Virus genome (UHGV): UHGV-1372865
Reading direction: 5' to 3' (one strand)
Source: a virus
DNA: 45,889 nucleotides
The translations under genes were made by a program, and so were the position numbers. Numbering within the stretch: position 1 is the first letter of the stretch; each line of letters starts with the position of its first letter. This document shows, in pieces, positions 21,843 to 45,889 of this stretch. Below the pieces are notes generated by a model that saw only the letters and a program-made list of their open reading frames with translations, was not told where the DNA came from and did not search any database.

Positions 21843-21850
21843 CAAAGGTA

Positions 21851-22377: not shown

Positions 22378-22453
22378 TCCCCGCCGATAATGCCTTGGTT
22401 GGCGTGGGAGTAGTAGGTAAGGCGAGAATTGGAAAAGGAAGGAGCGCAAGAAC

Positions 22454-23430: not shown

Positions 23431-23501
23431 AGAGTGTGTGTAAAGGTGTGGCGAAGTGCTGCACCTTATTTTAATACTTAAAAAAAACAGATAGTGTCAA
23501 A

Positions 23502-24545: not shown

Positions 24546-24574
24546 TTGCGATTCCACAACCCTCACGGTATAAT
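24546..24574 (+). promoter_or_regulatory. Sigma-A-type promoter driving the lipoprotein gene
   Basis: TTGCGA, 17-nt spacer, TATAAT; followed by GGAGGAAGGTTATG. Confidence 0.6.
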
Positions 24575-24611
24575 GAGTATGTGGTAAAGCGTATAGGGTA
24601 GGAGGAAGGTT

Positions 24612-25718: not shown

Positions 25719-25741
25719 GTATAGAAAAAGCACACAATGAC

Positions 25742-26458: not shown

Positions 26459-26459
26459 G

Positions 26460-26879: not shown

Positions 26880-27102
26880 TGAAAGAGAATAGAGAGAAAT
26901 TAAGCACAGCGGCTAAATATAAGAAGAACTTCATTATCAGCAAGCTGAAAGAAATGGACGAATGTCATATAAATCGCGTATATGCCTTTATGCAAGGCTG
27001 TACTGGAAATCCGGTCAAATAACTAAATACAGTAATCAGGGCATCTATCAGAAATGGTAGGTGCTCTTTTTATACAAATTTTTAACACGAGGTGGTGAGT
27101 AA

Positions 27103-30100
27103 ATGGCAGATGGAAAAGTTGTAATTGAAACAGATCTGGATTCTTCCGGGATAGAAAAAGGACTTTCAAAGCTTGGGAGTATAACAGCAAAAGGGATGAA
27201 AGCGGCAACGGTAGCGATCACGGGAACTGCAGCAGCACTTGGTGGAGTTGCAGCAGCGGCAATCAAGGTGGGTTCTGATTTTGAATCTCAGATGTCTAGA
27301 GTTAAGGCTATCTCCGGAGCAACAGGAGAAGAGTTTGAGCAATTAAAGGAACAGGCAATGCAGTTAGGTGCTGATACCTCGTTTTCTGCCAGTCAGGCAG
27401 CAGAGGGAATGGAGAATCTGGCAGCAGCTGGTTTTACTACATCCGAGATTATGAGTGCAATGCCGGGACTTTTAAATCTGGCAGCGGCATCCGGTGAAGA
27501 TCTGGCGAGCAGTTCGGATATTGCAGCATCAACCTTAAGAGGATTTGGACTGGCGGCATCCGATGCAGCACACGTTGCGGATGTTCTGGCGGCGAATGCA
27601 AACCGTACGAATTCCTCTGTAGCAGATACCGGAGAGGCAATGAAGTATATAGCTCCTCTTGCAAGGGCAGCAGGACTTAGTTTGGAAGAGACAGCAGCGG
27701 CAATCGGAATCATGGCGAATGCCGGAGTGAATGGCAGTCAGGCTGGTACTTCTTTAAGAGGAGCGTTATCACGGCTTTCAAAGCCAACGAAAGACATGTC
27801 TGAGGCTATGGATGAACTTGGAATTTCCTTCTACGATTCCAACGGGAAAATGAAATCCCTGACGGAACAGGTTGGAATGCTCAGACAGGCAACAGAGGGA
27901 ATGACGGATGAGCAGAAAAATAATTATCTGGTCACCCTGTATGGACAAGAAGCATTGTCCGGTATGCTGGCATTGATCAATGAGGGAGAAGGTTCTCTCG
28001 GAGAACTGACGAATGCCTATAAGAACTGTGATGGTGCAGCTCAAAAGGCAGCAGAAACAATGCAGGACAATCTATCTGGTGCATTAGAGCAGCTTGGTGG
28101 ATCAGCAGAAACATTAGGTCTGGCGTTTTACAACAGTGTAGCGGACAATCTGAAAAATGCAGCAAAGACAGCAACAGAAAGCATCAACAATATCACAGAT
28201 TCTTTCAATAACGGTGGTCTGAATGAAGCGATCCAGACAGCAGGTGATGAATTTGCGAATCTTGCAATAGAAGCGGCATCCCATGCCCCAGAAATGGTGG
28301 ATACAGCAGTGGATTTCATAGAATCCTTTGCTTCTGGAATTGCTTCGAACAAAGGAAGGATTCTCGGTGCGGCCGGAGAGATGGCGGAGTCTATGGCATC
28401 CGGTCTGGCAGAGCTGTTACCATCCAAACTGCAAGAGCCGGTTGAGGATGCAATTGATGCAGTGGCAGAGTCATTGAGTGATGGTGGATTAAAAGAAGCA
28501 GCAGAGACAGCAGCGGACACATTGGATAATGTAGTGGATGCTGTTGGAAATCTGGCTGATAAAGCGCTTCCGCCATTGACAAAGGCACTGGACTTTGCAG
28601 GAGAGAATCTGGACTTGATCGCAGCATCAGCAACGGCAGCTTTTACTGCATTTAAAGGATATAAAGTTGTCAATGAAACAACATCTATATTAAAAAAAGG
28701 TGTGAAAACATGGAAGACCGCTTCTGCAGCAGTGGATGCTTACTATGCTGCACAGCTTCTGGCTATGGAAAGTGGTGTTGCAACAAACGCTACACTTACA
28801 GCGGGGCAAGCAGTTGTTGGCATGTTTACAGGAAAGGTGAATTTAGCCACAAAAGCACAAACTCTTTGGAACGTTGCTATGAAAGCGAATCCGATTGGTC
28901 TTGTGATTTCTGCGGTAGCAGCTCTGGCAGCAGGTCTTGGTGTTTATGCTTTGACGCAGAAAGAAGCGGAGTCTGCTACAGATAAAGCCAATAAAAAACT
29001 GGCAGAGCAGGCAGAAGCAATCAGAGAAACTCAGGCTGCAAGACAAGATGAAGTTGCCGGAATTCAGACGCAGTTTGGTTATTATCAGCAACTATGGGAT
29101 GAGTTACAGGGAATTGTTGACCAAAATGGGAAGATAAAGGAAGGATATGAGGAACGTGCAGCCTTTATTACATCCACATTATCCGAAGCACTTGGCGTAG
29201 ATATTGAAACGACAGATGGAGTAATACAGAAGTATGGTGAGTTAACGCAATCCATAGATCAAGTTATTCAAAAGAAAAAAGCAGAGGCAATATTGTCCGC
29301 TTATGAGGATGATTATACTACAGCGATAAAGAATCAGACACAAGCAGCAAAAGAAGTTTCTCGCACATTTGACGATTATTCTGAGGCACTAAGAGCATCC
29401 GAAGAAGCAACAAGAAAGTTGGAAGATGCCACTGCGTCAATGACTACAGAACAGGCAGCAGGTTCTTTTGAAATCATGCGTCTTCAACAAGCACAGATGG
29501 AAGCTGATGCAGAATTACTTGAAGCGGAAAAGGCATTTGATAATGCGAAAACTGCTTCCAATGAGTATTTGACTACGATATCAAATTACGAAGCCGCAAT
29601 GGGGGCAGTTGAATCCGGAAGTGAAAATGCCGCTCTTTCTGTTTTGGCATTGGCAAATGATATGAAACGCGCTGGGGAAGCGAGCGAAGAAGCTTTAAAA
29701 GAACAAGCTGAAAGTTTTCTGCAAAGTTATGACGATATGCGTGCAGCAGCGGCGGAAAAAGGTTCTGGAGTAACGAATGAAATGGTGACTCAAGCTCGTA
29801 TCATGTGGCTCATGGCTCAAATTGAATACGAAAAGGGATCTACTAATAATATCGCTTCGATTGAAGCTTATCAAAATGAAATCAATCAATTACTCGGAAA
29901 TTCAGGAAATCCAGAAGCAGCAGCCCAAGAAGCGAAAGAAACCACAGAAGCTGCAACGAACGCTTTACAAGAGGGAAAAGAACCAGTGAAGCAAGCAGCG
30001 AAAGACGCTATCGAGGGTGGCGTCAGTGAGGGAGCGGCAGAGGCAGATACTTCTACGGTTCCTGCTCAAAAAGGAAAAGAGGCGGCGGATAGTACTGCGA

Positions 30101-31320
30101 ATTCTGTAAACAGTGGAAAAACTGCGATCAATGAAGCAGCAAAAAGCGCTGTGAATGAGATCAATACAGGTGCAAGTACTACAGATACGACAACGGTTCC
30201 TTCCAGCAAAGGAAGTGAGGCAACACAGTCTCTGATTGATGCACTGTATGCGAATTCCAATGCCGTATTGATGGCAGCGGCTTCCTTAGGCGGTCAGATT
30301 CCACAAGGGTTGAATGGCATGGATATGTTGTCAGCTACGGCAGGATTTGGAAACAACGTAGGTTTTGGACTATCATCCTCTTTGAGTGGCCAAGCCCCGG
30401 TTGTGCAGGCGGCTGCATCAGGATTGGAAAATGCGGCTTTATCAGGACTTTCATCTGCAAATGTTTCGGGACAAGCGCAGGCAATGGGAAGTCAGATTGC
30501 AAACGCGCTTGCAAATGGAATTGTTGGTGGTTCTGGATCAGTAAATGCGGCGGCATCTACATTAGGCGGCAATGCAGCGGTGGCATTGTCAAATGTCAAG
30601 CTTTCCGAAAAAGGAAAACAGGAAGGAAAGAAACTTGGTGATGGTTTAAAGAGCGGGATTGATTCTGGCAAGAAAAATGCGGAGTCATCTGCCAAAAGTC
30701 TTGGAGACGGAGCTGTATCCGGTTTAAGTAGCGTTGGAATGAGAAGCAAAGCGTACGATCAAGGATTGAATTTTTCCTATGGTCTTGCAAATGGTATTTC
30801 GGCTGGAAGCTCCGCGGCTATTTCCGCAGCTATCGCAGTTGCTTCTTCTGCACTGGCAGCAGCGAAAAGGGAACTTGATGAGCGTTCTCCATCCAAAAAG
30901 ACAAGGGAATTTGGTCAATTCTTCAGTAAAGGTCTGGCGTTGGGTATTAAGGATGAAGAAAAGTCAGTTGTAAAATCTTCCCGGAATATTTCAAACGCAG
31001 CACTGGAATCTATTGACCTATCTACTGTTTCAGCACGGATGCGAGAGGTTATGGCTTTTAATGCATCCAGAGTAGCGAATCGTCCAGCAACATCTGTTAT
31101 GCAGTACAAGATGGATAACGCAGAAATCAGAAATCTTCAGCAACAGAATCAAGCGATTCTGAATGCAGTGGCAGGACTTTCTGATCTGGCAAAACGTCCG
31201 ATCGAAGTAAGCACAACACTGAATGGAAGAGAATTGATTAAAGAAACAGCAGCTCAAATGCTGACAGAACAGCAAAGAATTACAGATTTTAAGAAATTAC
31301 TGAAAGGAGAACGTACATGA
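27103..31320 (+). CDS. Tail tape measure protein (TP901-type core)
   Basis: 1405 aa, Ala/Ser/Gly-rich; ..SQAAEGMENLAAAGFTTSEIMSAMPGLLNLAAASGEDLASSSDIAASTLRGFGL.. is the tape-measure core motif; GAGGTGGTGAGtaaATG. Confidence 0.9.
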   Translation: MADGKVVIETDLDSSGIEKGLSKLGSITAKGMKAATVAITGTAAALGGVAAAAIKVGSDFESQMSRVKAISGATGEEFEQLKEQAMQLGADTSFSASQAAEGMENLAAAGFTTSEIMSAMPGLLNLAAASGEDLASSSDIAASTLRGFGLAASDAAHVADVLAANANRTNSSVADTGEAMKYIAPLARAAGLSLEETAAAIGIMANAGVNGSQAGTSLRGALSRLSKPTKDMSEAMDELGISFYDSNGKMKSLTEQVGMLRQATEGMTDEQKNNYLVTLYGQEALSGMLALINEGEGSLGELTNAYKNCDGAAQKAAETMQDNLSGALEQLGGSAETLGLAFYNSVADNLKNAAKTATESINNITDSFNNGGLNEAIQTAGDEFANLAIEAASHAPEMVDTAVDFIESFASGIASNKGRILGAAGEMAESMASGLAELLPSKLQEPVEDAIDAVAESLSDGGLKEAAETAADTLDNVVDAVGNLADKALPPLTKALDFAGENLDLIAASATAAFTAFKGYKVVNETTSILKKGVKTWKTASAAVDAYYAAQLLAMESGVATNATLTAGQAVVGMFTGKVNLATKAQTLWNVAMKANPIGLVISAVAALAAGLGVYALTQKEAESATDKANKKLAEQAEAIRETQAARQDEVAGIQTQFGYYQQLWDELQGIVDQNGKIKEGYEERAAFITSTLSEALGVDIETTDGVIQKYGELTQSIDQVIQKKKAEAILSAYEDDYTTAIKNQTQAAKEVSRTFDDYSEALRASEEATRKLEDATASMTTEQAAGSFEIMRLQQAQMEADAELLEAEKAFDNAKTASNEYLTTISNYEAAMGAVESGSENAALSVLALANDMKRAGEASEEALKEQAESFLQSYDDMRAAAAEKGSGVTNEMVTQARIMWLMAQIEYEKGSTNNIASIEAYQNEINQLLGNSGNPEAAAQEAKETTEAATNALQEGKEPVKQAAKDAIEGGVSEGAAEADTSTVPAQKGKEAADSTANSVNSGKTAINEAAKSAVNEINTGASTTDTTTVPSSKGSEATQSLIDALYANSNAVLMAAASLGGQIPQGLNGMDMLSATAGFGNNVGFGLSSSLSGQAPVVQAAASGLENAALSGLSSANVSGQAQAMGSQIANALANGIVGGSGSVNAAASTLGGNAAVALSNVKLSEKGKQEGKKLGDGLKSGIDSGKKNAESSAKSLGDGAVSGLSSVGMRSKAYDQGLNFSYGLANGISAGSSAAISAAIAVASSALAAAKRELDERSPSKKTREFGQFFSKGLALGIKDEEKSVVKSSRNISNAALESIDLSTVSARMREVMAFNASRVANRPATSVMQYKMDNAEIRNLQQQNQAILNAVAGLSDLAKRPIEVSTTLNGRELIKETAAQMLTEQQRITDFKKLLKGERT

Positions 31321-32789
31321 CACTTTCTGTGAAGTTCAATGACATCGAATTAGGAAAGTACATCGAAGTACTACAGGGATTTACACCGTTTGTCGGTGCT
31401 GACTGGAATCCATCGTTTGTGAAGGCAGAAAAACAGAATGGAAGTGATTTTGCTTACACGTCATACGAGAACAAACAAATTGTGATGCCGTTTACGATTG
31501 AGGGTAATCTGGAAGAGAAGTACGATGCTTTACAGAAAGCATTAAAAGTAGATGAACCAAAAAAGTTAGTGTTTGGAAATGTTCCGAACAAATGCTTTTA
31601 TGCGATTCCAAGTGGTACTTTAGAATTCAGCGAAGAAACAGAATTTCTGGGAGAGGGAACAATCACATGGTTAATCCCTGACGGTGTAGCATACTCCACC
31701 GCAGAATTCGACTTCTATGGCGTCCAGAATAACGGCTACCAGACCATTACCATCCAAAACAACGGCACCGAATGGGCAGACGTGGACTACGAGATCACGC
31801 ACCAACACGAAAACGGATTTATCGGACTTGTGAGCCAGTATGGAGTGATCCAGCTCGGAAAAGAGGAGGAAGCAGACGGAGAGAACTACGAAGCGTCCGA
31901 AGAACTGTTTAACGGTTACGGCTTGTTTCAAGACGATCATGGAACGTCTTACCAAAATCCGGAAAACACCACACGGGGAACACTCGAAGTACGGAACATT
32001 GCTGGACACAATGTGATGGCGCTAAAAGGTGGACAAGCAACATCCGGATACTGGAATGGTGGAATGAAAACACTTACTATCCCGGTGGACAGTGAGGGCA
32101 GACGTGGAGCGAAGAACTTTTACTGTTACACCCAGCACTGGTTTGAAACCGGATTAATGGGGCAGACAGGAGCGCAGACCATTGCATTTCTGACAGGAGA
32201 TAACAAGGTGATCTGCGCCATGTCTATTAACAAGAGTGATACGGTTGGCAATACGGCGCATGTGGACTGGTTTGCCCCTCAAAACAAGAAAATTAAGACA
32301 CTGGATTTCCAGCCGACATCCTACGAGGATAACCCGTTTAATTTAAAAATGGGCGGCGGACACAATGACTTTTTAAAAGAGGGTGACAAGTTGCGTATTT
32401 TCTGGTACGGGAAGTATTACCACTTTACTATCCCAGAGATCAAAGATATGGAATGCGAGAAAATCCAGATCTGGATCGGGCAGTGGGGAAGTAGAGATCT
32501 TGGAAATCAGCTGGTTACGCACAATTATTTAAAAAGTATCTGGTTCCGTAAGGATAACGTGGAAAAATACCGAGATGTGCCGAACCGGTACCGTGCCGGA
32601 GATGTGGTGTCTATAGACGGGGAGAGTACGAAGGTCTACGTTAATGGGATGGTGGCTAAGGGAGATGAGATTAATGGATCCAATTATCCAAAAGTGCCAC
32701 CCGGAACAACAGAAGTGCAGTTCTGCTATTCTTCCTTTTCTTCTCCACCGCCACAGATTAAAGCGAAAATACGGGAGGTGTATTTATAG
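31317..32789 (+). CDS. Distal tail protein (Dit), enlarged to 490 aa
   Basis: ATGA overlap with the tape measure; sits in the conserved TMP-Dit-Tal order. Confidence 0.55.
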   Translation: MTLSVKFNDIELGKYIEVLQGFTPFVGADWNPSFVKAEKQNGSDFAYTSYENKQIVMPFTIEGNLEEKYDALQKALKVDEPKKLVFGNVPNKCFYAIPSGTLEFSEETEFLGEGTITWLIPDGVAYSTAEFDFYGVQNNGYQTITIQNNGTEWADVDYEITHQHENGFIGLVSQYGVIQLGKEEEADGENYEASEELFNGYGLFQDDHGTSYQNPENTTRGTLEVRNIAGHNVMALKGGQATSGYWNGGMKTLTIPVDSEGRRGAKNFYCYTQHWFETGLMGQTGAQTIAFLTGDNKVICAMSINKSDTVGNTAHVDWFAPQNKKIKTLDFQPTSYEDNPFNLKMGGGHNDFLKEGDKLRIFWYGKYYHFTIPEIKDMECEKIQIWIGQWGSRDLGNQLVTHNYLKSIWFRKDNVEKYRDVPNRYRAGDVVSIDGESTKVYVNGMVAKGDEINGSNYPKVPPGTTEVQFCYSSFSSPPPQIKAKIREVYL

Positions 32790-35700
32790 TGGATAACATC
32801 AGGATCGCGATTTTAAGCGCGAATAACACACCAGTAGCGTTTATGGACAATCAGCACAAGAAGTCCATGCACTACTGGAAAGACGAATTGCACGAATACT
32901 TACAGGGTGCGGCAAATACTTACACCTTTACGGTGTCCGCAAAGCATCAGGATGCAGAGAATGTTACCGCCGGGAATAAGGTGGCGTTTATACACAAAGG
33001 GAAATCCTACTATCTAAACATCGTAAACACTGAGCAGACAGAGGAGACGATCACAGCTACGGCGTGGTCGTTATCTTTTGAGCTAATCAACGAGGATGCC
33101 GGAGAGTACAAAGCCGGAAAAGCAATGAGCTTTGAGGAGTACCTTGCCGTTTTTGATGCTGAGAGAACACTAAAACTGGGGCTCAATGAGGTATCAGATA
33201 AGCGGATCACCAACGAATGGACAGGTACAACGTCCGTATTAAAGAGATTATTCTCTCTGGCTAATGTATTTTCTGCGGAGATCGAGTTTGAGACAGTGCT
33301 TAACAGCGATTACTCCTTAAAAGAGATTGTGCTGAATGTATATCGGAAACACTCCGATACAGACAGCGGAGTCGGAGAATACCGGAATGACATTGTACTG
33401 CGGTACGGGAAAGGAATTACCGGAATCCGTAAGACCACGGATGCAGAAAAGTTATATACATGCATCCAGCCGACCGGAAAGGACGGTCTGACAATCAATG
33501 GTCTTGACAAGAAAGAATACGATGAAAACGGGAATATCGAGTACTTTACAGACGGTGCGATCATCCGGGCACCACAGGCAAGAGACCGGTTTCCGTCCAA
33601 TATCGTGAATAAAGAGGATGCTTATATCCTGATGCGGAAAGAGTATGATACAGACAGCAAGGACAAGCTCTATAGCATGGCTCTGTCTGATCTTAAAACA
33701 GCATCCGAACCGGTGGTGACTTACGAGGTGGACGGATATTTTGACACCAACATCGGGGATACGGTAAGGATGCAGGATCAGGAGTGGACACCAGTCCTTT
33801 ATCTACAGGCAAGAGTATCAGAACAGATCAGGAGTCTTACCAATCCAAAAACTGCAAAGACGGTATTTACAAACTACAAAGAGCTTACATCCGAAATTTC
33901 GGATAGCTTGTTGCAGAGGATGGAAGATCTTATCAACAAAAATAAGGTCTACACTTGTTCCATCTCCACCAACAATGGCATCATCTTTAAAAATGGTATC
34001 GGCAGCACTACTCTGACAGCTTACGCTTACGATAACGGCGTGGACGTGGCAGACAAGCTACAATTCCGGTGGAGCAAAGATGGCACAGAGTTTTATGTTG
34101 GTAAGAGTGTTACGGTAAATGCTACTGACGTGGATACAAAGGCGGTGTACTCGTTTGAGGCTATGGAAAATGGGATAAAACGTGGGTATTACGAGGTTAC
34201 GATTGCAGATTTAATGGATGGAGAGGACGGAAAAGACGGGGAACAGGGTCCGCAAGGTGAGAAAGGAGAGCAAGGCGAACAGGGACCTCCGGGACCACAA
34301 GGCGCTCCGGGATTGGATGGTATACAGGGTCCAAAGGGGGATCAGGGAATCCCGGGAAAAGATGGGAAGGACGGAAAAACACAGTACACCCACATCGCCT
34401 ATGCGAACAGCGCAGACGGTAGGACAGATTTTTCCGTGTCCGACAGTAATAGGGAATATATCGGAATGTATGTTGATTTTGCGCAAAATGACAGCGCAGA
34501 CCCGACAAAATACGCATGGAGTAAGATCAAAGGCACAGACGGGGCGATCGGAACACCCGGAAAGCCGGGAGCTGATGGAAAGACCCCGTATCTACATATC
34601 GCCTACGCAAACAGTGCTGATGGAAAGACGGGATTTTCCACCACGGATGGTACAAATAAGCTCTATATCGGGCAGTATACAGATTATATACAGGCAGACA
34701 GTGCAGATGCTACGAAGTATACATGGACAAAGATCAAAGGCGAACAGGGGGAACGTGGGCTACAAGGGCTGCAAGGAGAAAAAGGCGAACAGGGGATTCC
34801 TGGAACAGCTGGTGCGAATGGAAAGACCAGTTATTTCCACATCAAGTATTCTTCTGTGGCAAAGCCGACAACGTTCAGTCAGATGACAGAGACGCCGTCT
34901 GCTTATATTGGAACTTATGTGGACTTTGTACAGGAAGATTCTACAGATCCTGCAAGATATACCTGGTCGCAGTTTAAAGGATCGCAAGGCGTAAAAGGAG
35001 ATCAGGGAATTGCTGGTAAGAATGGTGCAGATGGGAAAACAAGTTATTTACATATCGCCTACGCAAACAGCGCAGATGGAAAGACAGGGTTTGATGTTTC
35101 GAATAGCGCTGGGAAGTTTTATATTGGACAGTATACAGATTTCACGCAAGCGGATTCTACAGACCCGACGAAATACGCATGGACAAAAATCAAAGGCGAA
35201 AATGGAAAAGACGGAACAAACTCAAGAAGCTACATCCTGGAAGCGTCCGATACCGCTATTAAAAAAGGTGCAGACGGAGCTTTAACACCATCTAAAATAA
35301 CATTCCGGTCGTTTTATCGAGATGGAGACAGTGCGACAAGGATACCATATAATGGTAGATTTAAAATCGAAGAGTCAACCAACGGAACATCATACTCCGT
35401 GAAATACACCTCATCTGCGAACGAAAGTGCAAAGGAGTATACACCGACTGCAACTGCGAAAATACTCCGTTGCACGCTTTACAGCGCAGACGGGACTATA
35501 AATGCTTTGGATACGCAGAGTGTTGTTGTGCTTACGGATGTGGATAATTTGGAGATTGGCGGTAGGAATTTACTATTAAACACAGGGTTTAATACTTTTA
35601 ACCATTGGATTAAAGGTAGTAATACAAAATCTCTCCAGATGGTTAATGGATGGTGTGAAGTTACGATTGGTGGGACATGGTCTGGATTTGTTCAAGAATT

Positions 35701-37750
35701 TATACCAGAAAAAAATGTTGAATACATAGTGAGTTACGAAGCGTATCTGGTAGACACTGTTGCTGAAACTGCTGTGTTAGAAACAGATTTTGGTACTCCA
35801 GATCAAAATCAAACAATTAACAAAACGCCTGCAAAATATTCATTGAAATTAAAATATCCATCTACATCTTTAAATGGAAAAATAGATTTCATGTTATCAA
35901 ATAATGAAGTGGGTAAAAAATGGAGAATTCGAAATATCAAACTTGAAAAGGGTAATAAAGCCACAGACTGGTCTCCCGCTCCTGAGGACATAGAAACTTT
36001 AGTAGTAACATTGTCCAACGATTCCCAAACAGTAGCAACAGACACAAACGGAAACGGTGGAAACTTTATAGATTGCTCTACAAAAGTGCAGGTTTACAAC
36101 GGCGCACAGGACGTTTCAGAAGTCGCTACTTACACCGTAACAAAATCTTCCGGAATTGCTGGTACATGGGATTTAAGTACACGTACTTACAAGGTATCCG
36201 CTCTATCTACGGATAACGGATGGGTTGACATTAAAGTAACATACAACGGAAATTCTATCACAAGACGGTTTACGGTTTCGAAATCGAAACAGGGCGCGCA
36301 GGGAGCAACGGGACCTCAAGGTGATAATGGACCACAAGGGCCGGCGGGGACGTCTGGAAGAGGGATAAAAACTATTACAGAATATTATTTGATTTCTTCC
36401 GCAAAAACAGGAATTACAACAGCGTCAAGCGGTTGGAGTACATCAGTTCCGACGATGACAGCAACAAATAAATACTTGTGGAACTATGAAAAATTTACGT
36501 TTACAGATAATACGACAGCGACCACTACACCAAAAATAATCGGGATATACGGAGACAAAGGAACAACAGGAGCTACTGGTCCGCAAGGACCTCAAGGAAA
36601 TACAGGTGCTACTGGACCGCAGGGGCCACAAGGAGCGACTGGCCCGAAAGGACCGCAGGGGGCAACTGGTGCAACGGGACCACAAGGGGTAACTGGAAAC
36701 GGAATAAAGTCTATCACGAATTATTATCTTGCAACGGCAAGCGGAAGCGGTGTGTCGGCGTCCACATCAGGATGGACTACAACTGTACAAGCAATAACGG
36801 CGTCAAAAAAATATCTGTGGAATTATGAAGTTGTTACCTATACAAATGGTAGCACGTATCAATCAGCACCATGTATCATCGGGGTATATGGTGATAAGGG
36901 AGCGACAGGTGCTACAGGAGCAACAGGACCAAGTGGCATAATTGTATCTTCTACGGCTCCGTCAAATCCTAAAGTTGGCCAGTTATGGCAGACAGCAAGT
37001 GGAGAGCCGATTAAGAGATGGGATGGAAGTAGGTGGGTGATCCATTATATTTCTGTTGATAACTTAAACGCACAGACTTTAAGTGCGATAGCGGCAGATC
37101 TTGGAACTGTAACTGCCGGACTTATTAAGGATAAGAATGGAACAATGCTTATCGATGTTACATCCGGAAAGATTATTAGCAAGAAAATCGTGCAAGGAGC
37201 AGTGGAAAATGTTGCGTCATTGAGTAATGCGTATTTGGCTTTCTCCGGTAAGGCTCCGACAACAGATCGAGCTACTATGAGCGTGAACTTGCAAAACATC
37301 ATGTTTACAAATGAAAATACAAGAAAAGCAACGACAATCCAGTTTGAGGATGAAATGATATATGCAAGAAATTCTGTATCCCCACGTATAAGCATATATG
37401 CGTATCGCAATTACGATTCCGGTACCGTGAAAGGTCCATTTACAAGTGCAAACTCCAATAATAACATCCGCGTGGAACTAAAAAGAAGAGGATTTATGGT
37501 AACATGCAAGATCACAATGCTTGCACAATTTCCAGGAAGTGGCGAATACGGGCCATTCAACGAGGTGAAAATTCCAGTAGGATATCGACCGGTTGTGGAT
37601 TTCTTTGCTCCCTATAGTGAAGTTGTAGGATCTAACATATTTGGAACGGGAAGATACGGCATAGGAAAAGATGGGGGGATCAAGATTTATGTGGAGAATG
37701 CCGCATGGACAGAACATCACGCAACGTTCACGTGGATTACAGATGATTGA
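32789..37750 (+). CDS. Tail-associated protein / tail fibre (Tal) with collagen-like G-X-Y tracts and internal module repeats
   Basis: 1653 aa; G-X-Y runs at about residues 480-530, 1170-1190, 1260-1310 and 1365-1385; four repeats of about 50 aa (..[15 protein letters not shown]....YIGQYTD..QADS.DPTKY.W.KIKG) and two longer repeats (GIK.IT.YYL.....G......SGW.T.V....A..KYLWNYE). Confidence 0.8.
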
Positions 37751-37832
37751 TTAAAGGAGCAAATATGGAGATAAGAGCAAGACCATGATGGTCTTATTTT
37801 TATACTTTAAAAACAGAAAGGAAAGTGAGGAT

Positions 37833-38285
37833 ATGAAGAAAATGGAACAGTTAGCAAATGTAAAGGCGTTTTTATGCATGGTGTTTGGAGCTATTGCTGG
37901 AGGATTTGTAAACCTGATCGGAGGATGGTCTGAGGACTTAACTACATTACTTATTTTTATGGGTGTAGATTTTGTACTCGGGTTACTGATCGCTGCCTTT
38001 TGGAAAAAGAGCAACAAATCAGAGAACGGGGCACTGAGCAGCTACTCTGCATGGAAAGGTCTGTGCAGAAAAGGGGTATCCCTACTGATCGTACTTATTG
38101 CATATCGGCTGGATGTCACTCTCGGCGTAGACTACATCCGCACAGCCGTAGTACTGGCATTTATAGCAAATGAGGGTATCTCGATTTTGGAAAATGTTGG
38201 AATTATGGGTGTGAAATATCCGGAAGCGTTAAAAAAAGCACTGGATGTTTTAACAAATAAATCACAGGAGCAGGAGGGCGAGTAA
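37833..38285 (+). CDS. Holin (phage_holin_4_1-like, multi-TM)
   Basis: AAAGGAAAGTGAGGAtATG; TM segments FLCMVFGAIAGGFVNLIGG, LLIFMGVDFVLGLLIAAFW, GVSLLIVLIAY and VVLAFIANEGISIL; charged C-terminus. Confidence 0.7.
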   Translation: MKKMEQLANVKAFLCMVFGAIAGGFVNLIGGWSEDLTTLLIFMGVDFVLGLLIAAFWKKSNKSENGALSSYSAWKGLCRKGVSLLIVLIAYRLDVTLGVDYIRTAVVLAFIANEGISILENVGIMGVKYPEALKKALDVLTNKSQEQEGE

Positions 38286-38380
38286 TCGTCCTCTTTTGTA
38301 GATTTTATTAACACTAATCTTACTTGCGGAAACAGTGCAGATGGTATATAATAAACGTATTATATATGGCGGTGCATACA

Positions 38381-39088
38381 ATGGAATTAAACGATATTAC
38401 AGTTTTTGTGGACGAATCTGGAACGATTGGTAAAGGTACGATAAAAGAGAATGACTTCTTTATTATCACGCTCTTATTTGTTAAAGATGAAGACATAAAT
38501 CATATTAAAAAAGTATTTAAAAAGGAACGGCTAAAAATTGTTAATAAAAAGGATACGCTCAAAGAACAGTTAAGGAACAATAAAGAGGTAAAGGGGTCAG
38601 AGCTTAGTGAGGTAGAAAAAAGACAAATATATGAAAAGCTAATCGAAAAGTGCGGCGATAAGTTCGAAATAGCTGTGATTGTGATGAATAACAGAAAAGC
38701 TACAGTAAAATTCAGATCGAATTCATCTAGAGCATTTAACTACCTTATAAAAACTTTTTTAGAAAAGCATTTCAAGAAAAGAAGCAAGTTCAAAGAGTTG
38801 AGCCAAATACATTTTGTTATTGACGAGAGGAATGTTGCGACAGAGTCAAAATATACTTTACAGGAATATTTGAATACAGAATTGAATTTAGTGGAATCAT
38901 TTGCGGAAAAAGATATAGTTGTTCATTATTATGATTCAAAAAATTATTTGTTACTGCAACTAGCAGATTTTATTTCAAATACTTTTTACAGATATAGGCA
39001 AAAAAATATCGCAGAATCAAAAGATAATGTAAAAATGTTACTAAATCAGACAAGTACAAATAAAATATTCAAATTTCCGTATTATTAA
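38381..39088 (+). CDS. DUF3800-family protein (N-terminal VFVDESG motif) of unknown function, AT-rich
   Basis: MELNDITVFVDESGTIGKG.. is the DUF3800 hallmark; GC content is visibly lower than the flanking lysis genes. Confidence 0.55.
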   Translation: MELNDITVFVDESGTIGKGTIKENDFFIITLLFVKDEDINHIKKVFKKERLKIVNKKDTLKEQLRNNKEVKGSELSEVEKRQIYEKLIEKCGDKFEIAVIVMNNRKATVKFRSNSSRAFNYLIKTFLEKHFKKRSKFKELSQIHFVIDERNVATESKYTLQEYLNTELNLVESFAEKDIVVHYYDSKNYLLLQLADFISNTFYRYRQKNIAESKDNVKMLLNQTSTNKIFKFPYY

Positions 39089-39195
39089 AATTGATTATAC
39101 ATATAATTTAACTGGCAGTTGTTATATAAGTCCATGTTTTGACACATTTGTGCTTGGGAGATATCCTCGAATATGGCGTAACAACTGTTTTATTG

Positions 39196-39224
39196 TTGAC
39201 AATTACGAAAAAACATGCTAATAT
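39196..39224 (+). promoter_or_regulatory. Strong sigma-A promoter upstream of the 88-aa gene and the endolysin
   Basis: TTGACA, 17-nt spacer, TAATAT. Confidence 0.65.
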
Positions 39225-39305
39225 TTGTTTAACAAAATAAGTCCTTATAAACCGCAAGAGATTGTAAGCAGTATGTACTACTGTCGGAGTAAGGCATTGC
39301 CAGAA

Positions 39306-39334
39306 GAACACCTCAGCTATGGGGTGTTTTTTGT
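39306..39334 (+). terminator. Intrinsic terminator / attenuator hairpin inside the roughly 180-nt leader
   Basis: AACACC-tcagctatgg-GGTGTT followed by TTTTTTG, about 80 nt upstream of the ATG at 39415. Confidence 0.5.
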
Positions 39335-39414
39335 TATACATATAGTGAATGCGTAGGGAGCTTGGAAACAGGCTCTCTTTTATTGTGCGATTGCACGGGA
39401 AGGAATAAAGAATT

Positions 39415-39681
39415 ATGGGTAGTAGAGAATTTTTAAACATTTGTAAAGCAAAGGTGGCAGATTATTTTAATCAGAATAAAGACAAGACGGATACGTCTGG
39501 CAACATGACTTCGGATGATGTATTTGTAGTTTGGTATTGCAAGACACTGCAAAATCACAAGGCGTTACTTAGTACGCCAGTGAGTGACGGTATGTATCAT
39601 GAGATCACATACAATGGAGACAAAAACGAGTTATATTTTGATGCTTACAAAAAGTGGGAAAACATTAAATACGATATGTAA
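39415..39681 (+). CDS. Hypothetical protein (88 aa, no TM), first gene after the promoter
   Basis: GGAAGGAAtaaagaattATG. Confidence 0.5.
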   Translation: MGSREFLNICKAKVADYFNQNKDKTDTSGNMTSDDVFVVWYCKTLQNHKALLSTPVSDGMYHEITYNGDKNELYFDAYKKWENIKYDM

Positions 39682-39714
39682 GTTGTGCGTCATCGCGCAG
39701 GAAGGAGAGAAAAT

Positions 39715-40692
39715 ATGAGTATTTGTCGTGGAGTAGCAGGAAACAGAGGAAGAAATCCGGTAGGAATCTTTTTTCACAATGACGCTGGAAGCAAGAACGC
39801 CAATGCAGAATTTTACAGAAATTGGTTACAGACACATCCTCTGGAAAACGGATTTGCGCACTATTATGTAGCACAGGATGGCATCTTACAGGCAGAGGAT
39901 GATATGAATTGTGCATGGCACTGCGGAGACACAAACGGGAACTTAAATTATCTTGGCATCGAAACGTGTCAGAGTATGGGCGATCTGGATGTATTTAAAG
40001 CAAATGAGGAAAAAGCATTGCAGTTGGCAGCGCAGAAGTGCAAGCAGTATGGAATCACACCAAGCACAAGCACGATAAGGCTACATCAGGAAGTGTATGC
40101 CACATCATGCCCTCACAGATCTGTGGAGATTCACGGTGGCAGAGAAGCTACAAAGTCCTACTTTATCAAACGGATTAAGGAGTACATGGGTGGTAATGTC
40201 ACGCCACCAACTTACGTATCTGGTGGACAGGGATCCGGACAGGCATCGGCGTCACAGCAGCCGGAAGTAGTATTTACCTACGCTGTCAAGCTGGAGGACG
40301 GACGCATCTTGCCGTTTGTACGGAATCTTACAGACTTTGCCGGAATTCAGGGTAAGAAAATCACAGACGTGGCTATCAAGGTAGACAAGGGATCCGTAAA
40401 ATACAGAGTCCACGTGATTGGCAGAGGGTGGCTGCCTTATGTGACCGGATGCAACTGGAAAGATCACAATAATGGTTATGCCGGTACAGGACAGCCAATT
40501 GACGCAATCGAGGTGTACTACAATACTCCAGCAGATTATGCGGCAAAATACGGCTACCAGAAAGCCCAGTACCGTGTCAGCCCTGTAAATGGAGCTTACT
40601 GGTCATGGCAGTATGATAACGAGACTGGAAACGGACAGGACGGATATGCTGGAGCGTTCGGACAGGCAATCGATCGGTTCCAGTTGTTCTAA
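39715..40692 (+). CDS. Endolysin: N-acetylmuramoyl-L-alanine amidase (Amidase_2/PGRP) with C-terminal CW_7-like cell-wall-binding repeats
   Basis: ..GIFFHNDAGS..HYYVAQDG..CAWHCGD..NYLGIETCQS..YATSCPHRS.. amidase_2 motifs; C-terminal GYAGTGQPIDA / GYAGAFGQAIDRF repeats; GGAAGGAGAGAAAAtATG. Confidence 0.85.
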   Translation: MSICRGVAGNRGRNPVGIFFHNDAGSKNANAEFYRNWLQTHPLENGFAHYYVAQDGILQAEDDMNCAWHCGDTNGNLNYLGIETCQSMGDLDVFKANEEKALQLAAQKCKQYGITPSTSTIRLHQEVYATSCPHRSVEIHGGREATKSYFIKRIKEYMGGNVTPPTYVSGGQGSGQASASQQPEVVFTYAVKLEDGRILPFVRNLTDFAGIQGKKITDVAIKVDKGSVKYRVHVIGRGWLPYVTGCNWKDHNNGYAGTGQPIDAIEVYYNTPADYAAKYGYQKAQYRVSPVNGAYWSWQYDNETGNGQDGYAGAFGQAIDRFQLF

Positions 40693-40697
40693 TAAAA

Positions 40698-40727
40698 ACC
40701 CCCTCGGAGATCAGCTCTCTGAGGGGT
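40698..40727. terminator. Hairpin between the convergent endolysin and integrase genes
   Basis: CCCCTCGGAGA-tcagc-TCTCTGAGGGG. Confidence 0.45.
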
Positions 40728-40847
40728 GAATATTGTATCATTTTCGTGTATATTTATAATATGTAAAAATATTATAGGTTATTGCTATTTGGTGGCCCGG
40801 ATTGCAGTAACCTATAACATATCCGTAAACCCTTATAAACAGAGGGC

Positions 40848-42266
40848 TCACGAGATATAAAGGTGGAAGATCAGTTTGCCGTTTTTCTTGTCATAAACGA
40901 TATCCTCTACCAAACTTCTCATAAAAATGCCTTTCGTATCATAGTCTATCGCATCATTTTTAATCACATCGTATACAGTTTGCACGTTCTTGAGCACATC
41001 AGATTTTGTTTTCGTATCTCCATTATTCTTGTCGAGATTTTCCAGTTGCATCAAAATATCTTCCCTGTCTTTTTGCAGACGCTCTTTGTTCCGTTTATAT
41101 TCTTCCAAAGTATCTACTTCATTCTCATAAGCGAGACGGATCCGTTTCTCCCTGTTGGAAATTTTATCAAGTTCAGACAAGAGTGATTCACGTTCTGATA
41201 TCTTCTCACCGGTCTCGGCAGAGTGGTAAGAGTATTCAAAATCCATACCGGAAAGAAGTTTTTCAAAATACTCTTCCAGTGCAGCGATCACTTTTTTCTC
41301 TGATATCGAACAGGATTCGGTATGTACTCCTTTGCTGTACTTATAGCACTGGAAACCAGGTGAGTGCCTGTTTGCGCCATTGTAGGCGAGAGAGGCCCCG
41401 CAGTATCCGCATTTTAAAATCCCTGATAACCAATGTTTACATGAGGATACATCACGGCGTTTCAGTGGCCTATATGTAGTTTGTATCTTTTTCATGCGGG
41501 CTTCGAAGCGTTCTTTTGAGTAATGGACTTCATGCGTTCCCATGAATGTTATCCCATTCCACGCGACAAGACCATAATAGAATGGATTTTTCAAGATTCT
41601 TTCTACGCTACGGGATTCGAAAGGGTTCCCTCGTCTTGTGCGGACTCCCATATCGTTTAGCTTTCTTGTTATCTTTGTGGTATCTGAGTTGTGGTAATCA
41701 AATTCATCACAGATAAAATCCACGACCTTCATTTCATCCGGATCAATTTTATAAGGATCTCCGTTTCCAACAGCACGATACCCAAAAGGTGGGGACATCT
41801 GGTATCCTTTTTTTGTAGCCTTTTCTTTCATCCCTCTTAGGACTTCGCCAGAAAGCCGGATAGAGTAGTATTCATCCATCCATTCAATGATTCTCTCGAT
41901 TAAAGAGCCGAATGGACCATCTATCAAAGGTTCTGACACACTCACAACATCAACGTTGCTTTGCTTCCGCAGCAGGGATTTGTATACGATAGATTCTTCT
42001 TGATTTCTTGCGAATCTGCTGAATTTCCAAACCAGAATCACATCAACCGGATGATCGGATGATTTTGCAAGCCCGATCATTTTTTGAAATTCCGGCCGTT
42101 TATCGGCTTTTCTTCCTGATATCCCAATCTCAAAGAAAACTTTCAAAATGATAATATTGTTTTTGGCAGCATATTCCCGTAATAGTTTCTCTTGCGAATC
42201 CGGAGAAAGTTCTTCCTGCTTATCAGTGGATACACGGACGTAACCATAGGCATATCTTGCGCTCAT
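40848..42266 (-). CDS. Large serine recombinase (phage integrase)
   Basis: N-terminal resolvase catalytic motif YAYGYVRVSTDKQ..SPDSQ; recombinase domain; Zn-ribbon CGYCG..C; coiled-coil C-terminus; 472 aa. Confidence 0.9.
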   Translation of the reverse strand: MSARYAYGYVRVSTDKQEELSPDSQEKLLREYAAKNNIIILKVFFEIGISGRKADKRPEFQKMIGLAKSSDHPVDVILVWKFSRFARNQEESIVYKSLLRKQSNVDVVSVSEPLIDGPFGSLIERIIEWMDEYYSIRLSGEVLRGMKEKATKKGYQMSPPFGYRAVGNGDPYKIDPDEMKVVDFICDEFDYHNSDTTKITRKLNDMGVRTRRGNPFESRSVERILKNPFYYGLVAWNGITFMGTHEVHYSKERFEARMKKIQTTYRPLKRRDVSSCKHWLSGILKCGYCGASLAYNGANRHSPGFQCYKYSKGVHTESCSISEKKVIAALEEYFEKLLSGMDFEYSYHSAETGEKISERESLLSELDKISNREKRIRLAYENEVDTLEEYKRNKERLQKDREDILMQLENLDKNNGDTKTKSDVLKNVQTVYDVIKNDAIDYDTKGIFMRSLVEDIVYDKKNGKLIFHLYIS

Positions 42267-44662: not shown

Positions 44663-45103
44663 TCATTCAAAATCTTTCAATCTTAATTCAATCATTCTTT
44701 TATGATAACCGAATAATCTAGATAATTGATCAGTAGTAAAATCCAGATGTTCTTCAATATCAGAATCTTGGATAAGTAAATTCAAAGCGAAACGATCAGC
44801 TTCCGTTTCAAATTTACTTGTCACAAAATTTGTTCTCGTATCCATGAATATAGCATTGCTATCTTTATGTAAGAACAAATGGCCAAGTTCATGAGCGATT
44901 ACAAATAATAGTTCATTCTCTGGCAATCGTTCATCCACGTATATGATGTGGTTCCTCTGAAAATAGTGGTAGAACCCACGAACTCCGTCTAATGGATGGA
45001 AAACAAGTATTGCATCCATTGCCTTTACAATTTCAAGAGGATTTCTTGTGCCGTATTTTTGAACGATTTCATTCACACGTTCCTTAATATCCATAAGTAT
45101 CAA
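44663..45103 (-). CDS. ImmA/IrrE-family metallopeptidase
   Basis: HEXXH motif VIAHELGHLFLH; overlaps the cI-like gene (ATGA). Confidence 0.8.
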   Translation of the reverse strand: MILMDIKERVNEIVQKYGTRNPLEIVKAMDAILVFHPLDGVRGFYHYFQRNHIIYVDERLPENELLFVIAHELGHLFLHKDSNAIFMDTRTNFVTSKFETEADRFALNLLIQDSDIEEHLDFTTDQLSRLFGYHKRMIELRLKDFE

Positions 45104-45558
45104 TCCTTTTTATACTTTTTAGGCGTATATTTCTCTTTGTTCTTTTGTTTTGCCATTTCCATTCCAATTCTCATAGCTGAGAGAATAGAATCTATTGCTT
45201 CTGGGGATGCTGGATCGCCATCAAACATCAGGCCGTCTTGTTTAAGCAATGCTTCTGTATCATTCAAAATCGCTTCTATTTGTTTGGAATCTCTTTTTGT
45301 AAGAGAAGTATTGCCAGTTGCTTTTTGACGTTCCGGCTCTTTTCCTGTTTGTAAATACTCAACTGATACGCCAAAATAGTCGGCGATTTTTTGCATTTTA
45401 TCAATTTTAGGAGTACTTAGTCCACGTTTCCAATCGCTTAGAGTTGACTGCGAAACTCCTGTTTCCTTACTCACCTTATAAGGAGTTACTCCGTTTTTCT
45501 GTAGTAATTCACTAAAAACCTCATACATAATTTGTTCACCTTTCATAAAAATAAACAA
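45100..45558 (-). CDS. cI-like XRE-family repressor
   Basis: N-terminal HTH ..TPYKVSKETGVSQSTLSDWKRG..; divergent from the cro-like gene. Confidence 0.8.
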   Translation of the reverse strand: MFIFMKGEQIMYEVFSELLQKNGVTPYKVSKETGVSQSTLSDWKRGLSTPKIDKMQKIADYFGVSVEYLQTGKEPERQKATGNTSLTKRDSKQIEAILNDTEALLKQDGLMFDGDPASPEAIDSILSAMRIGMEMAKQKNKEKYTPKKYKKD

Positions 45559-45584
45559 TACTAAAGAAAACCGATAAAAAGTAA

Positions 45585-45613
45585 TTGACTAAATCGGATT
45601 CACGTAGTAATAT
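45585..45613 (+). promoter_or_regulatory. Rightward (PR-like) promoter in the cI/cro intergenic switch
   Basis: TTGACT, 17-nt spacer, TAATAT. Confidence 0.5.
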
Positions 45614-45749
45614 ATGAGCATACACAAGAAAACCGTTGCAGTTTTCGGTGTATATGCTACGAACTGTTTATATATTTTGCTTGACAACCGAAGTATATCA
45701 CATTTTCGTAGTAATTGCAACAACTCAAGATGTGAAAGGTGGTGTGAAA

Positions 45750-45889
45750 ATGTACCAAAGATTTTTAGAACTATTGTGCAAAACAAACAAAACTCCGTAT
45801 CGTGTGTCAAAAGATACAGGGATATCGCAATCTGCATTATCCGACTGGAAAACAGGGAGAAGCAAGCCGAAAGCAGATAAGCTAAAAAT
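45750..45889 (+). CDS. Cro-like XRE-family HTH regulator, N-terminal part; continues into bases 1-48
   Basis: GAAAGGTGGTGtgaaaATG; ..TPYRVSKDTGISQSALSDWKTG.. HTH; the ORF stays open to the window end. Confidence 0.7.
   Translation, partial: MYQRFLELLCKTNKTPYRVSKDTGISQSALSDWKTGRSKPKADKLK

What the first reader, a model, noticed from the sequence alone, without database searches (positions are those of the whole stretch)
45750..45889. The cro-like gene runs off the right end and finishes at bases 1-48, so the window is a closed circular phage genome
The ORF starting at 45750 ends ..KADKLK with two bases left over. Adding base 1 gives ATC (I), and then LADYFGVSVEYFLE* in frame. The join reproduces the conserved XRE C-terminus seen in the cI-like protein (KIADYFGVSVEYLQ). 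This would not happen by chance for an integrated prophage cut out of a chromosome. It implies a complete, circularly closed temperate phage sequence of about 45.9 kb, with attP intact somewhere in it.
Basis: seen in the sequence. Interest (0 to 1): 0.6.

Follow-up and report, generated by a model that had tools for sequence, protein, structure and literature searches.

The report
Complete circular gut phage genome
The two ends of this 45.9-kb sequence join seamlessly inside a small regulator gene, so the window is one complete copy of an ordinary temperate phage of the gut bacterium Ruminococcus gnavus, drawn as a circle that was opened at an arbitrary point.

Summary
The ORF that starts at 45750 runs off the right end and continues in frame from base 1. 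It stops at TAG 44-46, not 48, giving a 61-aa Cro/C1-type HTH protein. Of 91,678 possible joins, only this one rebuilds the motif, apart from the cI gene itself. The join is contiguous in independent sequences. Phage phiRgPS_6 gp23 is 61 aa and 59/61 identical. Three long chromosomal contigs hold the 300-nt junction exactly and align without interruption from 40787 through 45889|1 to 3205.

Those prophages end at 40787, where host cotJC, cotJB and cotJA begin. The window instead carries both arms of an intact attP (40773-40816, core 40787-40801) beside a large serine integrase. A metagenome scan found 17 contigs with the attR hybrid and 4 with the attP form.

All phage modules are present once, in the usual order, with no host DNA. 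The exact terminase occurs in R. gnavus CCUG 49994.

A circular map does not prove a circular molecule. Permuted virion DNA, a replicative circle or a collapsed tandem prophage would all look the same.

This is an ordinary result: a new mosaic member of a described phage group.

The parts
45750..45889 (+). 5' part (codons 1-46 plus 2 nt) of the cro-like gene. It continues at base 1.
   Evidence: A GAAAGGTGGTG ribosome-binding site lies upstream. The joined product is 100% identical to 61-aa genes called in L108, L110, L113 and L114.
1..46 (+). 3' part of the cro-like gene: the third base of the Ile codon, then LADYFGVSVEYFLE, then TAG at 44-46.
   Evidence: Similarity to phiRgPS_6 ends exactly at base 46. 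Pfam HTH_3 profile positions 43-55 are supplied by this piece.
45529..45749 (.). Divergent regulatory region of 221 nt between the cI-like and cro-like genes. It holds promoter-like sites and short repeats that are presumed operators.
   Evidence: One search finds TTGACT-17-TAATAT on the + strand and TTGCAA-17-TATACT on the - strand. One search lists repeats D1-D4 and inverted repeats I1-I6. Function is inferred, not tested.
45100..45528 (-). cI-like repressor of 142 aa: an N-terminal HTH_3 domain with no S24 peptidase domain.
   Evidence: HTH_3 2.1e-13, Phage_CI_repr 3.4e-5. 66% identical to the Cro-like protein. The exact protein is listed in 319 blocks of the collection.
44663..45103 (-). 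ImmA/IrrE-type M78 metallopeptidase, co-oriented with the repressor and overlapping its 3' end.
   Evidence: Peptidase_M78 5.5e-16. The pairing is conserved in all 10 related places.
56..268 (+). Second small HTH gene (70 aa), directly downstream of cro.
   Evidence: HTH_26 3.2e-5. The homologous gene is annotated 'repressor protein' in phiRgIBDN1 and phiRg519T2. The same 70-aa gene follows cro in L108, L110 and L113.
40773..40816 (.). Intact attP. The arms are TATAGGTTATTGC (40773-40785) and GCAGTAACCTATA (40804-40816). The core ATTTGGTGGCCCGGA (40787-40801) is shared with host cotJC.
   Evidence: 17 metagenome contigs carry the left arm joined to the cotJC 3' part (attR). L005, L108 and L110 carry the cotJC 5' part joined to the right arm (attL). 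The window and 4 contigs carry both arms.
40848..42266 (-). Large serine recombinase (integrase), 472 aa.
   Evidence: Resolvase 1.4e-28, Recombinase 1.2e-13, Zn_ribbon_recom 1.2e-7. One search matches the catalytic domains of TP901-1 integrase and transposon recombinases.
40693..40735 (+). Hairpin plus T-run after the endolysin gene; a terminator-like element that marks the end of the late operon just before attP.
   Evidence: CCCCTCGGAGA...TCTCTGAGGGG. It is conserved in phiRgPS_6 and in most of the metagenome contigs.
13060..40692 (+). Single complete late module: small terminase-like gene, TerL, portal, SPP1 gp7-like minor capsid protein, scaffold, major head protein, connectors, tail, tape measure (1405 aa), Dit, tail fibre, holins and amidase endolysin.
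   Evidence: It is 95-99% identical to prophage DNA in R. gnavus CCUG 49994 and in metagenome contigs. Dit and the tail fibre are 93-95% identical to isolated R. gnavus phages.
269..13059 (+). Early module: antirepressor (Bro-N), Gp157-like protein, replisome organiser, DnaC/IstB-like ATPase, DUF551 protein and tRNA-Asn.
   Evidence: Patches are about 90% identical to R. gnavus phages phiRg519T2, phiRgIBDN1 and others.

Best explanation
The window is one full unit of a temperate siphovirus genome of Ruminococcus (Mediterraneibacter) gnavus. It is written as a circular map that was opened arbitrarily inside the cro-like gene.

Shown: joining base 45889 to base 1 restores a 61-aa Cro/C1-type HTH gene. 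That gene lies divergent from a cI-like repressor that is paired with an ImmA-type M78 peptidase. The genome has one copy of every module in the usual order: cro, early/replication, packaging, head, tail, lysis, attP, integrase, cargo, ImmA, cI. Next to a large serine integrase it carries an intact attP whose 15-nt core matches codons ..QFGGPD.. of the host spore-coat gene cotJC.

Inferred from the known behaviour of these families: after infection the DNA circularises. The integrase recombines attP with cotJC to give the prophage form seen in many chromosomal contigs. The cI-like repressor holds lysogeny until ImmA inactivates it. The Cro-like protein has a recognition region nearly identical to cI's (ISQSALSDWK against VSQSTLSDWK). 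It probably binds the same operators in the 221-nt intergenic region and shuts off the repressor promoter during lytic growth.
For: The join is in frame and completes the HTH_3 domain, and it is unique among 91,678 possible joins. Independent sequences are contiguous across it: phiRgPS_6 gp23, 61 aa and 59/61 identical, in a circular record; IMG/VR L002 at 99.5% from 40690 to base 51; and L108, L110 and L113, which align 8.3 kb at 98-98.8% across the join and match the 300-nt junction exactly.

Prophage ends map to 40787, not to the window ends, and cotJB/cotJA lie beyond them. The attP, attL and attR forms are all resolved, and the host gene is confirmed as Mn_catalase/CotJC with CotJB beside it. 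The integrase has the LSR domain set. The modules are complete.

Host evidence: the exact TerL is in R. gnavus CCUG 49994 (the accession is listed as that strain in PMC10072058), and the tail fibre is 93-95% identical to R. gnavus phages. GC is 41.65%, against 41.4-42.7% for the R. gnavus phages listed in PMC13435783.
Against: The window has no terminal overlap or direct terminal repeat, and no reads or record metadata are available. Circular closure is therefore inferred from sequence continuity alone. The source contig was not found in IMG/VR. An attP-type junction can also lie inside a chromosome, between tandem prophages (contig OATI01000168.1). The regulatory roles of Cro, cI and ImmA and the exact crossover dinucleotide are untested.
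Confidence: 0.9

Rival explanations
1. The window is a unit-length piece of, or an assembler's collapse of, two tandem prophage copies in cotJC or a replication concatemer. It would then not be a free circular molecule.
For: Contig OATI01000168.1 carries one attP-like internal junction and one attR, with 1,861 identical bases on the lysin side. Tandem prophages with this integrase module therefore occur in nature.
Against: A window cut from a chromosome would have to be exactly one unit long, with no base gained or lost at the join. Nothing in the window is host-derived.
Confidence: 0.07
2. False circularisation or a chimeric assembly: two different co-occurring phages share the cro region, and the assembler closed a path through that repeat.
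For: A mosaic breakpoint lies only about 50 nt from the join. phiRgPS_6 similarity ends at base 46, and L002-L004 jump from base 51 to about 860. This phage family is highly mosaic.
Against: L108, L110 and L113 carry the same arrangement as the window without interruption from 40787 to 3205. That includes bases 52-860 after cro, on long chromosomal contigs. Every module is present exactly once, with none duplicated or missing.
Confidence: 0.02
3. The element is a phage-plasmid maintained as an extrachromosomal circle and does not integrate.
For: The window has a circular map. No other evidence supports this.
Against: A large serine integrase and attP are present. Relatives with the same integrase and immunity genes are integrated in cotJC in many contigs. 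The attP-to-cro region has no match in 72,556 plasmid records. No partition or plasmid-replication families turned up among the proteins scanned.
Confidence: 0.01

Closest known systems
Ruminococcus phage phiRgPS_6 (MT980839.1; Buttimer et al. 2023, PMC10072058)
   Same: The immunity region is nearly identical: 97-99% over about 1.3 kb covering ImmA, cI and cro. Its gp23 is the same 61-aa protein, 59/61 identical. Tail fibre and Dit are 93% identical. It has the same host species and is a temperate siphovirus with a circular record.
   Different: Its genome is 37.8 kb and it has a tyrosine integrase with an intergenic attB. Its packaging, head and tail-shaft module is unrelated at the DNA level. 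Similarity stops exactly at the cro stop codon.
Ruminococcus phage RgGU19 (LC889034; PMC13435783)
   Same: By published features only: 46,025 bp, 41.8% GC, a serine-type integrase, a Cro/CI repressor, best similarity to phiRgPS_6, and a 208-nm tail. The window is 45,889 bp with 41.65% GC, and its 1405-aa tape measure predicts a tail of about 210 nm at 0.15 nm per residue (my calculation from established knowledge).
   Different: Its sequence is not in any collection available here, so identity could not be measured. The resemblance is a lead, not a test.
434/P22-type Cro with cI repressor (XRE/HTH_3 bistable switch)
   Same: A small single-domain HTH_3 protein is encoded divergently from a repressor that has a homologous HTH domain, and the two share an intergenic control region.
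   Different: The two domains are unusually alike (66% identity). The repressor lacks a LexA-like S24 autocleavage domain and is paired with an M78 peptidase instead. Operator binding is untested.
ImmR/ImmA immunity module (Bacillus ICEBs1 and phage phi105 type; from my own knowledge)
   Same: An HTH repressor without a protease domain is followed by a co-oriented ImmA/IrrE M78 metallopeptidase. The pair is conserved in all relatives.
   Different: Cleavage of the repressor is not shown here. This is a tailed-phage setting with its own Cro-like partner.
Prophages with large serine recombinases inserted in sporulation genes (SPbeta in spsM, skin in sigK; cotJC is named as a frequent phage/transposon target, citing Abe et al. 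2013, in bioRxiv 10.1101/2021.11.22.469490)
   Same: A large serine recombinase has its attB inside the coding sequence of a sporulation gene (cotJC, in a cotJA-cotJB-cotJC operon).
   Different: There is no evidence of sporulation-timed excision or of a dedicated directionality factor. The host is a gut Lachnospiraceae species, not a Bacillus or Clostridium model.

Membership tests
Complete, circularly closed temperate phage genome | End-to-start continuity with no base missing or duplicated | tested here: met
   The join restores the ORF in frame. The 300-nt junction is found exactly in three independent contigs.
Complete, circularly closed temperate phage genome | One copy of each essential module and no host DNA | tested here: met
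   Searches identify the immunity, replication, terminase, portal, head, tail, lysis and integration modules. The host genes cotJA/B/C flank relatives but are absent from the window.
Complete, circularly closed temperate phage genome | attP intact (both phage arms), not attL/attR hybrids | tested here: met
   The site at 40773-40816 was compared with 17 attR contigs, 4 attP contigs and the attL of L005 and L110.
Complete, circularly closed temperate phage genome | Direct evidence of closure: terminal repeat or overlap, junction-spanning reads, or a record flagged circular | not testable with these tools
   The window has no terminal overlap. No reads or record metadata are available. The source was not found in IMG/VR.
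Cro/C1-type (XRE, Pfam HTH_3) lytic-switch regulator | Full-length HTH_3 domain in a small single-domain protein | tested here: met
   HTH_3 1.1e-10, residues 11-59 against profile 7-55 of 55, in a 61-aa protein.
Cro/C1-type (XRE, Pfam HTH_3) lytic-switch regulator | Encoded divergently from the repressor across a shared control region | tested here: met
   The intergenic region is 221 nt (45529-45749). The same layout appears in 10 of 10 related places.
Cro/C1-type (XRE, Pfam HTH_3) lytic-switch regulator | Binds the operators and represses the repressor promoter | not testable with these tools
   Only promoter-like sites and short repeats were seen.
Lambda Cro family (distinct winged alpha+beta fold) | Sequence match to the lambda-Cro family profile | tested here: not met
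   A Pfam scan at E up to 0.01 returned only HTH_3, HTH_19, HTH_26 and HTH_31. The protein is cro-like by position and presumed role, not a lambda Cro homologue.
Large serine recombinase phage integrase | Resolvase catalytic domain, Recombinase domain and zinc-ribbon domain | tested here: met
   All three Pfam domains score above their cut-offs.
Large serine recombinase phage integrase | Compact attP of about 40-50 bp with imperfect inverted arms around a short core, beside the gene | tested here: met
   The arms are 13 nt with 12 of 13 complementary, and lie 18 nt apart. The site is 31 nt from the integrase stop codon.
Large serine recombinase phage integrase | Recombination directionality factor for excision | not tested
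   No candidate was sought.
ImmR/ImmA-type immunity module | HTH repressor without a protease domain, plus an adjacent co-oriented M78 peptidase | tested here: met
   The pair is conserved in relatives.
ImmR/ImmA-type immunity module | Peptidase cleaves the repressor on induction | not testable with these tools
   This needs an experiment.
Sporulation-gene intervening element (skin/SPbeta type) | Inserted within the coding sequence of a sporulation gene | tested here: met
   Relatives split cotJC after ..QFGGPD. The window itself is the unintegrated form.
Sporulation-gene intervening element (skin/SPbeta type) | Developmentally timed excision that rebuilds the gene in the mother cell | not testable with these tools
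   No expression or excision data are available.

The most novel reading that the evidence does not exclude
In R. gnavus and related gut Lachnospiraceae, fully lytic-competent phages of this family act as regulated intervening elements in the spore-coat gene cotJC. The serine integrase would excise them during sporulation and rebuild cotJC. Several integrase lineages appear to compete for the same few codons (..FGGPDGE..), in either orientation, and a second insertion hot spot lies about 90 nt downstream.
Probability: 0.12. Interest if true: 0.45.

Novelty: new member of a known kind. Interest (0 to 1): 0.12.

Why it matters
The practical value is bookkeeping. The window can be treated as a complete, correctly closed phage genome and re-origined sensibly. 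The cro gene should be annotated across the origin rather than lost as two fragments. The integration site (attP 40773-40816 into host cotJC) and the host (R. gnavus) are now assigned. None of this changes what is known about phage biology. R. gnavus temperate siphophages with serine integrases and genomes up to 46 kb have been published, and cotJC is a reported phage target.

Tried and rejected
1. Terminal overlap between the window ends: none from 8 to 399 nt. Closure cannot be shown from a repeat.

2. Source contig in IMG/VR, searched by an exact 46-mer from the portal gene: not found.

3. I first read the first 26 nt of L002, which do not align with the window, as a possible host flank marking the prophage end. 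I rejected this because they end in a stop codon at the same place as the window's endolysin stop, so I took them for a different lysin C-terminus.

4. The 51-nt stretch after the lysin gene that is conserved in phiRgPS_6 was considered as attP. I rejected this because it is a hairpin terminator and phiRgPS_6 uses a tyrosine integrase with a different attP.

5. A clean domain swap inside the integrase gene was considered, because megablast similarity to L107-type loci ends at about 41800. I rejected this because the proteins are only 48% identical overall, with the conserved N-terminal catalytic domain carrying the alignment.

6. PADLOC scan of the HSDR_N and HNH cargo genes and other unknown ORFs: only weak HNH-domain matches and no system assignment.

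7. Plasmid collection: no match.

8. TerL against solved structures, to infer the packaging mode: it matched only two terminases with no usable pac/cos information. The packaging strategy remains open.

Full report
**Observation.** The right end of the window holds an ATG at 45750, preceded by a GAAAGGTGGTG ribosome-binding site. From there 46 codons (MYQRF...KADKLK) run to 45887 and leave AT over. Base 1 (C) completes ATC. Bases 2-43 read LADYFGVSVEYFLE, and TAG follows at 44-46. The joined gene is 186 nt and encodes 61 aa. The cI-like protein on the other strand (45100-45528) contains KIADYFGVSVEYLQ. It aligns with the joined protein at 66% identity over 59 residues, starting at residue 1 and running across the join.

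**Chance.** I joined the last two bases of the window to every position on both strands, 91,678 joins in all. About 58% stay open for 15 codons, so an open frame alone means little. Only two joins give more than 5 of 15 identities to the cI motif: base 1 on the + strand (10/15) and the cI gene itself (14/15). The Pfam HTH_3 match grows from 24.0 bits on the truncated 46 aa (profile 7-42) to 41.8 bits on the joined protein (profile 7-55 of 55). The ends do not overlap.

**Independent contiguity.** A 2-kb query built across the join hits Ruminococcus phage phiRgPS_6 (MT980839.1, a circular record, host R. gnavus ATCC 29149) at 98.8% in one piece. That piece ends at the cro stop codon. Its gp23, annotated 'transcriptional regulator, HTH cro type', is 186 nt and 59/61 identical to the joined protein. 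Anaerostipes phages AC844P1-3 cross the join at 72%. IMG/VR contig L002 matches at 99.5% from 40690 through to base 51, and L003 and L004 are collinear across the join.

The exact cI protein is listed in 319 blocks of the assembly collection. In all 10 places shown, a 61-aa HTH_3 gene lies divergent from it. L108 (362-kb contig), L110 (1.5 Mb) and L113 (52 kb) each align with the window in a single uninterrupted stretch of 8.3 kb at 98-98.8%, from 40787 through 45889|1 to about 3205. Each holds the 300-nt junction exactly, and their Cro proteins are 100% identical to the joined one. Nothing is missing or duplicated at the join.

**Where the prophage really ends.** The window encodes a 472-aa large serine recombinase at 40848-42266 on the minus strand, with Resolvase, Recombinase and Zn_ribbon_recom domains. 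Between its stop codon and the endolysin terminator lies TATAGGTTATTGC-(18 nt)-GCAGTAACCTATA, at 40773-40816.

In genome contigs with related integrases, similarity to the window stops inside this site. In L005 (98% integrase identity) and in L110, the integrase-side arm is fused to ..ATGTGGAATTATGAA...CAATTTGGCGGCCCGGA. This is the 5' part of a gene encoding MWNYEKRLQYPVKITQTNP.IAKVIISQFGGPD.

A metagenome scan with the lysin-side arm returned 22 contigs:
- 17 continue into GGPDGELAASMRYLSQRYTMPY..., which is the attR hybrid.
- 4 continue into the other phage arm and the integrase, as the window does. This is the attP form.
- 1 is something else.

The rebuilt host protein is a manganese catalase (Mn_catalase 3.7e-37). 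Upstream of it lie CotJB (4.1e-31) and CotJA, so the target is cotJC. The shared core is ATTTGGYGGCCCGGA (40787-40801). A T/C difference at 40793 travels with the left flank. This places the exchange between 40794 and 40801, which is compatible with the symmetric centre GG at 40794-95. That last step is an inference.

Its own ends are unrelated to the prophage ends.

**Completeness and identity.** The window contains the following, in order:
- cro, a second HTH gene, and Bro-N and zinc-ribbon regulators
- a Gp157-like protein, a replisome organiser and a DnaC/IstB-like ATPase
- a DUF551 protein and tRNA-Asn (12863-12937)
- a small-terminase-like gene, TerL (Terminase_3), portal, an SPP1 gp7-like protein, scaffold, major head protein and connectors
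- a Gp15-like protein and two antirepressor-like genes
- a 1405-aa tape measure, Dit and a 1653-aa collagen-repeat tail fibre
- holins and an amidase endolysin
- attP and the integrase
- an HNH gene and an HSDR_N gene
- ImmA and cI

Each module occurs once, and no host gene is present. The early region is about 90% identical, in patches, to the isolated R. gnavus phages. Dit and the tail fibre are 93-95% identical to them. The packaging-to-tail module is absent from those phages but is 95-99% identical to prophage DNA in many contigs. These include JAPRAY010000015.1, the R. gnavus CCUG 49994 assembly (strain identity from PMC10072058). GC content is 41.65%.

A 2026 paper describes 29 further R. 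gnavus siphophages of 32.3-46.0 kb, mostly with serine integrases. One of them, RgGU19, has 46,025 bp, 41.8% GC, a 208-nm tail and best similarity to phiRgPS_6 (PMC13435783). By those features it is the likeliest close relative.

**How it works.** The following is shown: the genome is a circular permutation opened inside cro; the lysogeny module is cI + ImmA-type peptidase, with Cro divergent from it; and integration is by a large serine recombinase into cotJC.

The following is inferred from established knowledge of these families. The repressor lacks an S24 domain, so induction probably goes through the M78 peptidase, as in ImmR/ImmA systems. Cro and cI share a nearly identical recognition region, so they probably compete for the same operators in the 221-nt region. 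That region has promoter-like sites on both strands.

The physical form of the DNA is not determined. The SPP1-like head genes hint at headful packaging and permuted ends, which would explain a circular assembly, but the terminase comparison was uninformative.

**Rivals.** A tandem prophage or a concatemer would give the same window. A chimeric false circle is unlikely, because long chromosomal contigs show the same arrangement on both sides of the join. A phage-plasmid is unsupported. A linear chromosomal fragment with unrelated flanks is excluded by everything above.

**Verdict.** The biology is ordinary: a new mosaic member of a described group of R. gnavus temperate phages. cotJC is already reported as a frequent phage target (bioRxiv 10.1101/2021.11.22.469490).

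Noticed in passing
window 40773-40816; L005, L085-L106, L108, L110: The phage integrates inside the coding sequence of the spore-coat gene cotJC (Mn catalase), after codons ..QFGGPD. The attP core mimics 15 nt of the gene. In attL the truncated CotJC runs 4 codons into phage DNA (..GGPDCSNL*).
   Followed up: yes
L007, L008, L013, L020 (and L009-L012, L014) versus L005, L006, L015: Prophages with integrases 60-74% identical sit at the same cotJC codons but in the opposite orientation. Their integrase-side flank is the sense 3' part of cotJC instead of the antisense 5' part.
   Followed up: partly
L009, L012, L014, L103-L105, about 90 nt downstream of the core in cotJC: Several contigs diverge from cotJC again at GATATCGGTA (..TDIG|TEE..). 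This suggests a second insertion hot spot for another element in the same gene.
   Followed up: no
L097 and L103 (both from contig OATI01000168.1, 84 kb): The contig holds tandem prophages: one internal attP-like junction and one attR, with 1,861 identical bases on the lysin side. The internal core differs (CCCATATTG instead of CCCGGATTG).
   Followed up: partly
window 42531-44636 (-): A two-gene cargo lies between ImmA and the integrase: a 362-aa protein with a type I restriction HSDR_N / PD-(D/E)XK-like domain and a 329-aa protein with a C-terminal HNH nuclease. The pair is conserved in all 10 related prophages. PADLOC gives no system assignment. It could be a superinfection-defence pair.
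   Followed up: partly
L107, L111, L112, L115, L116 versus window 40848-45528: The same cI-ImmA-HSDR_N-HNH cassette (about 96% identical) is linked in other prophages to a different serine integrase (491 aa, 48% identical). That integrase is inserted beside a 306-329-aa gene next to rseP-dxr-cdsA-uppS-frr, not in cotJC.
   Followed up: partly
window 45750-46 and 45100-45528: The Cro-like protein and the N-terminal domain of the repressor are 66% identical over 59 residues, with almost the same recognition helix. This is unusually close for a Cro/cI pair and suggests a recent duplication or gene conversion.
   Followed up: partly
window 46-101: A sharp mosaic breakpoint lies right after the cro stop codon. 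phiRgPS_6 similarity ends at base 46, L002-L004 jump from 51 to about 860, and similarity to phiRg519T2 and phiRgIBDN1 begins at 101.
   Followed up: partly
window 23502-26879: Regulator-type genes sit inside the tail module, between the Gp15-like gene and the tape measure. They are a Rha-like regulator (229 aa), an unknown 368-aa protein, an antirepressor-like protein (238 aa) and an unknown 167-aa ORF. Relatives carry a Phage_pRha or Bro-N gene at the position of the first of these, directly after the Gp15-like gene, so this looks like a variable slot.
   Followed up: partly
window 12863-12937 (+): A tRNA-Asn (GTT) gene lies just upstream of the small-terminase-like gene. It is 96.6% identical over 58 nt to tRNA-Asn of Bacillus phage Mater.
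   Followed up: no
window 27103-31320: The tape measure protein is 1405 aa, which predicts a tail of about 210 nm. This matches the 208-nm tail reported for R. gnavus phage RgGU19 (46,025 bp), the likeliest published relative. The sequence comparison could not be run here.
   Followed up: partly
window 39108-39440 (-): A lone minus-strand 110-aa ORF lies inside the otherwise plus-strand lysis region, between the holin-family genes and the DUF6275 gene. It has no family match in PADLOC.
   Followed up: no
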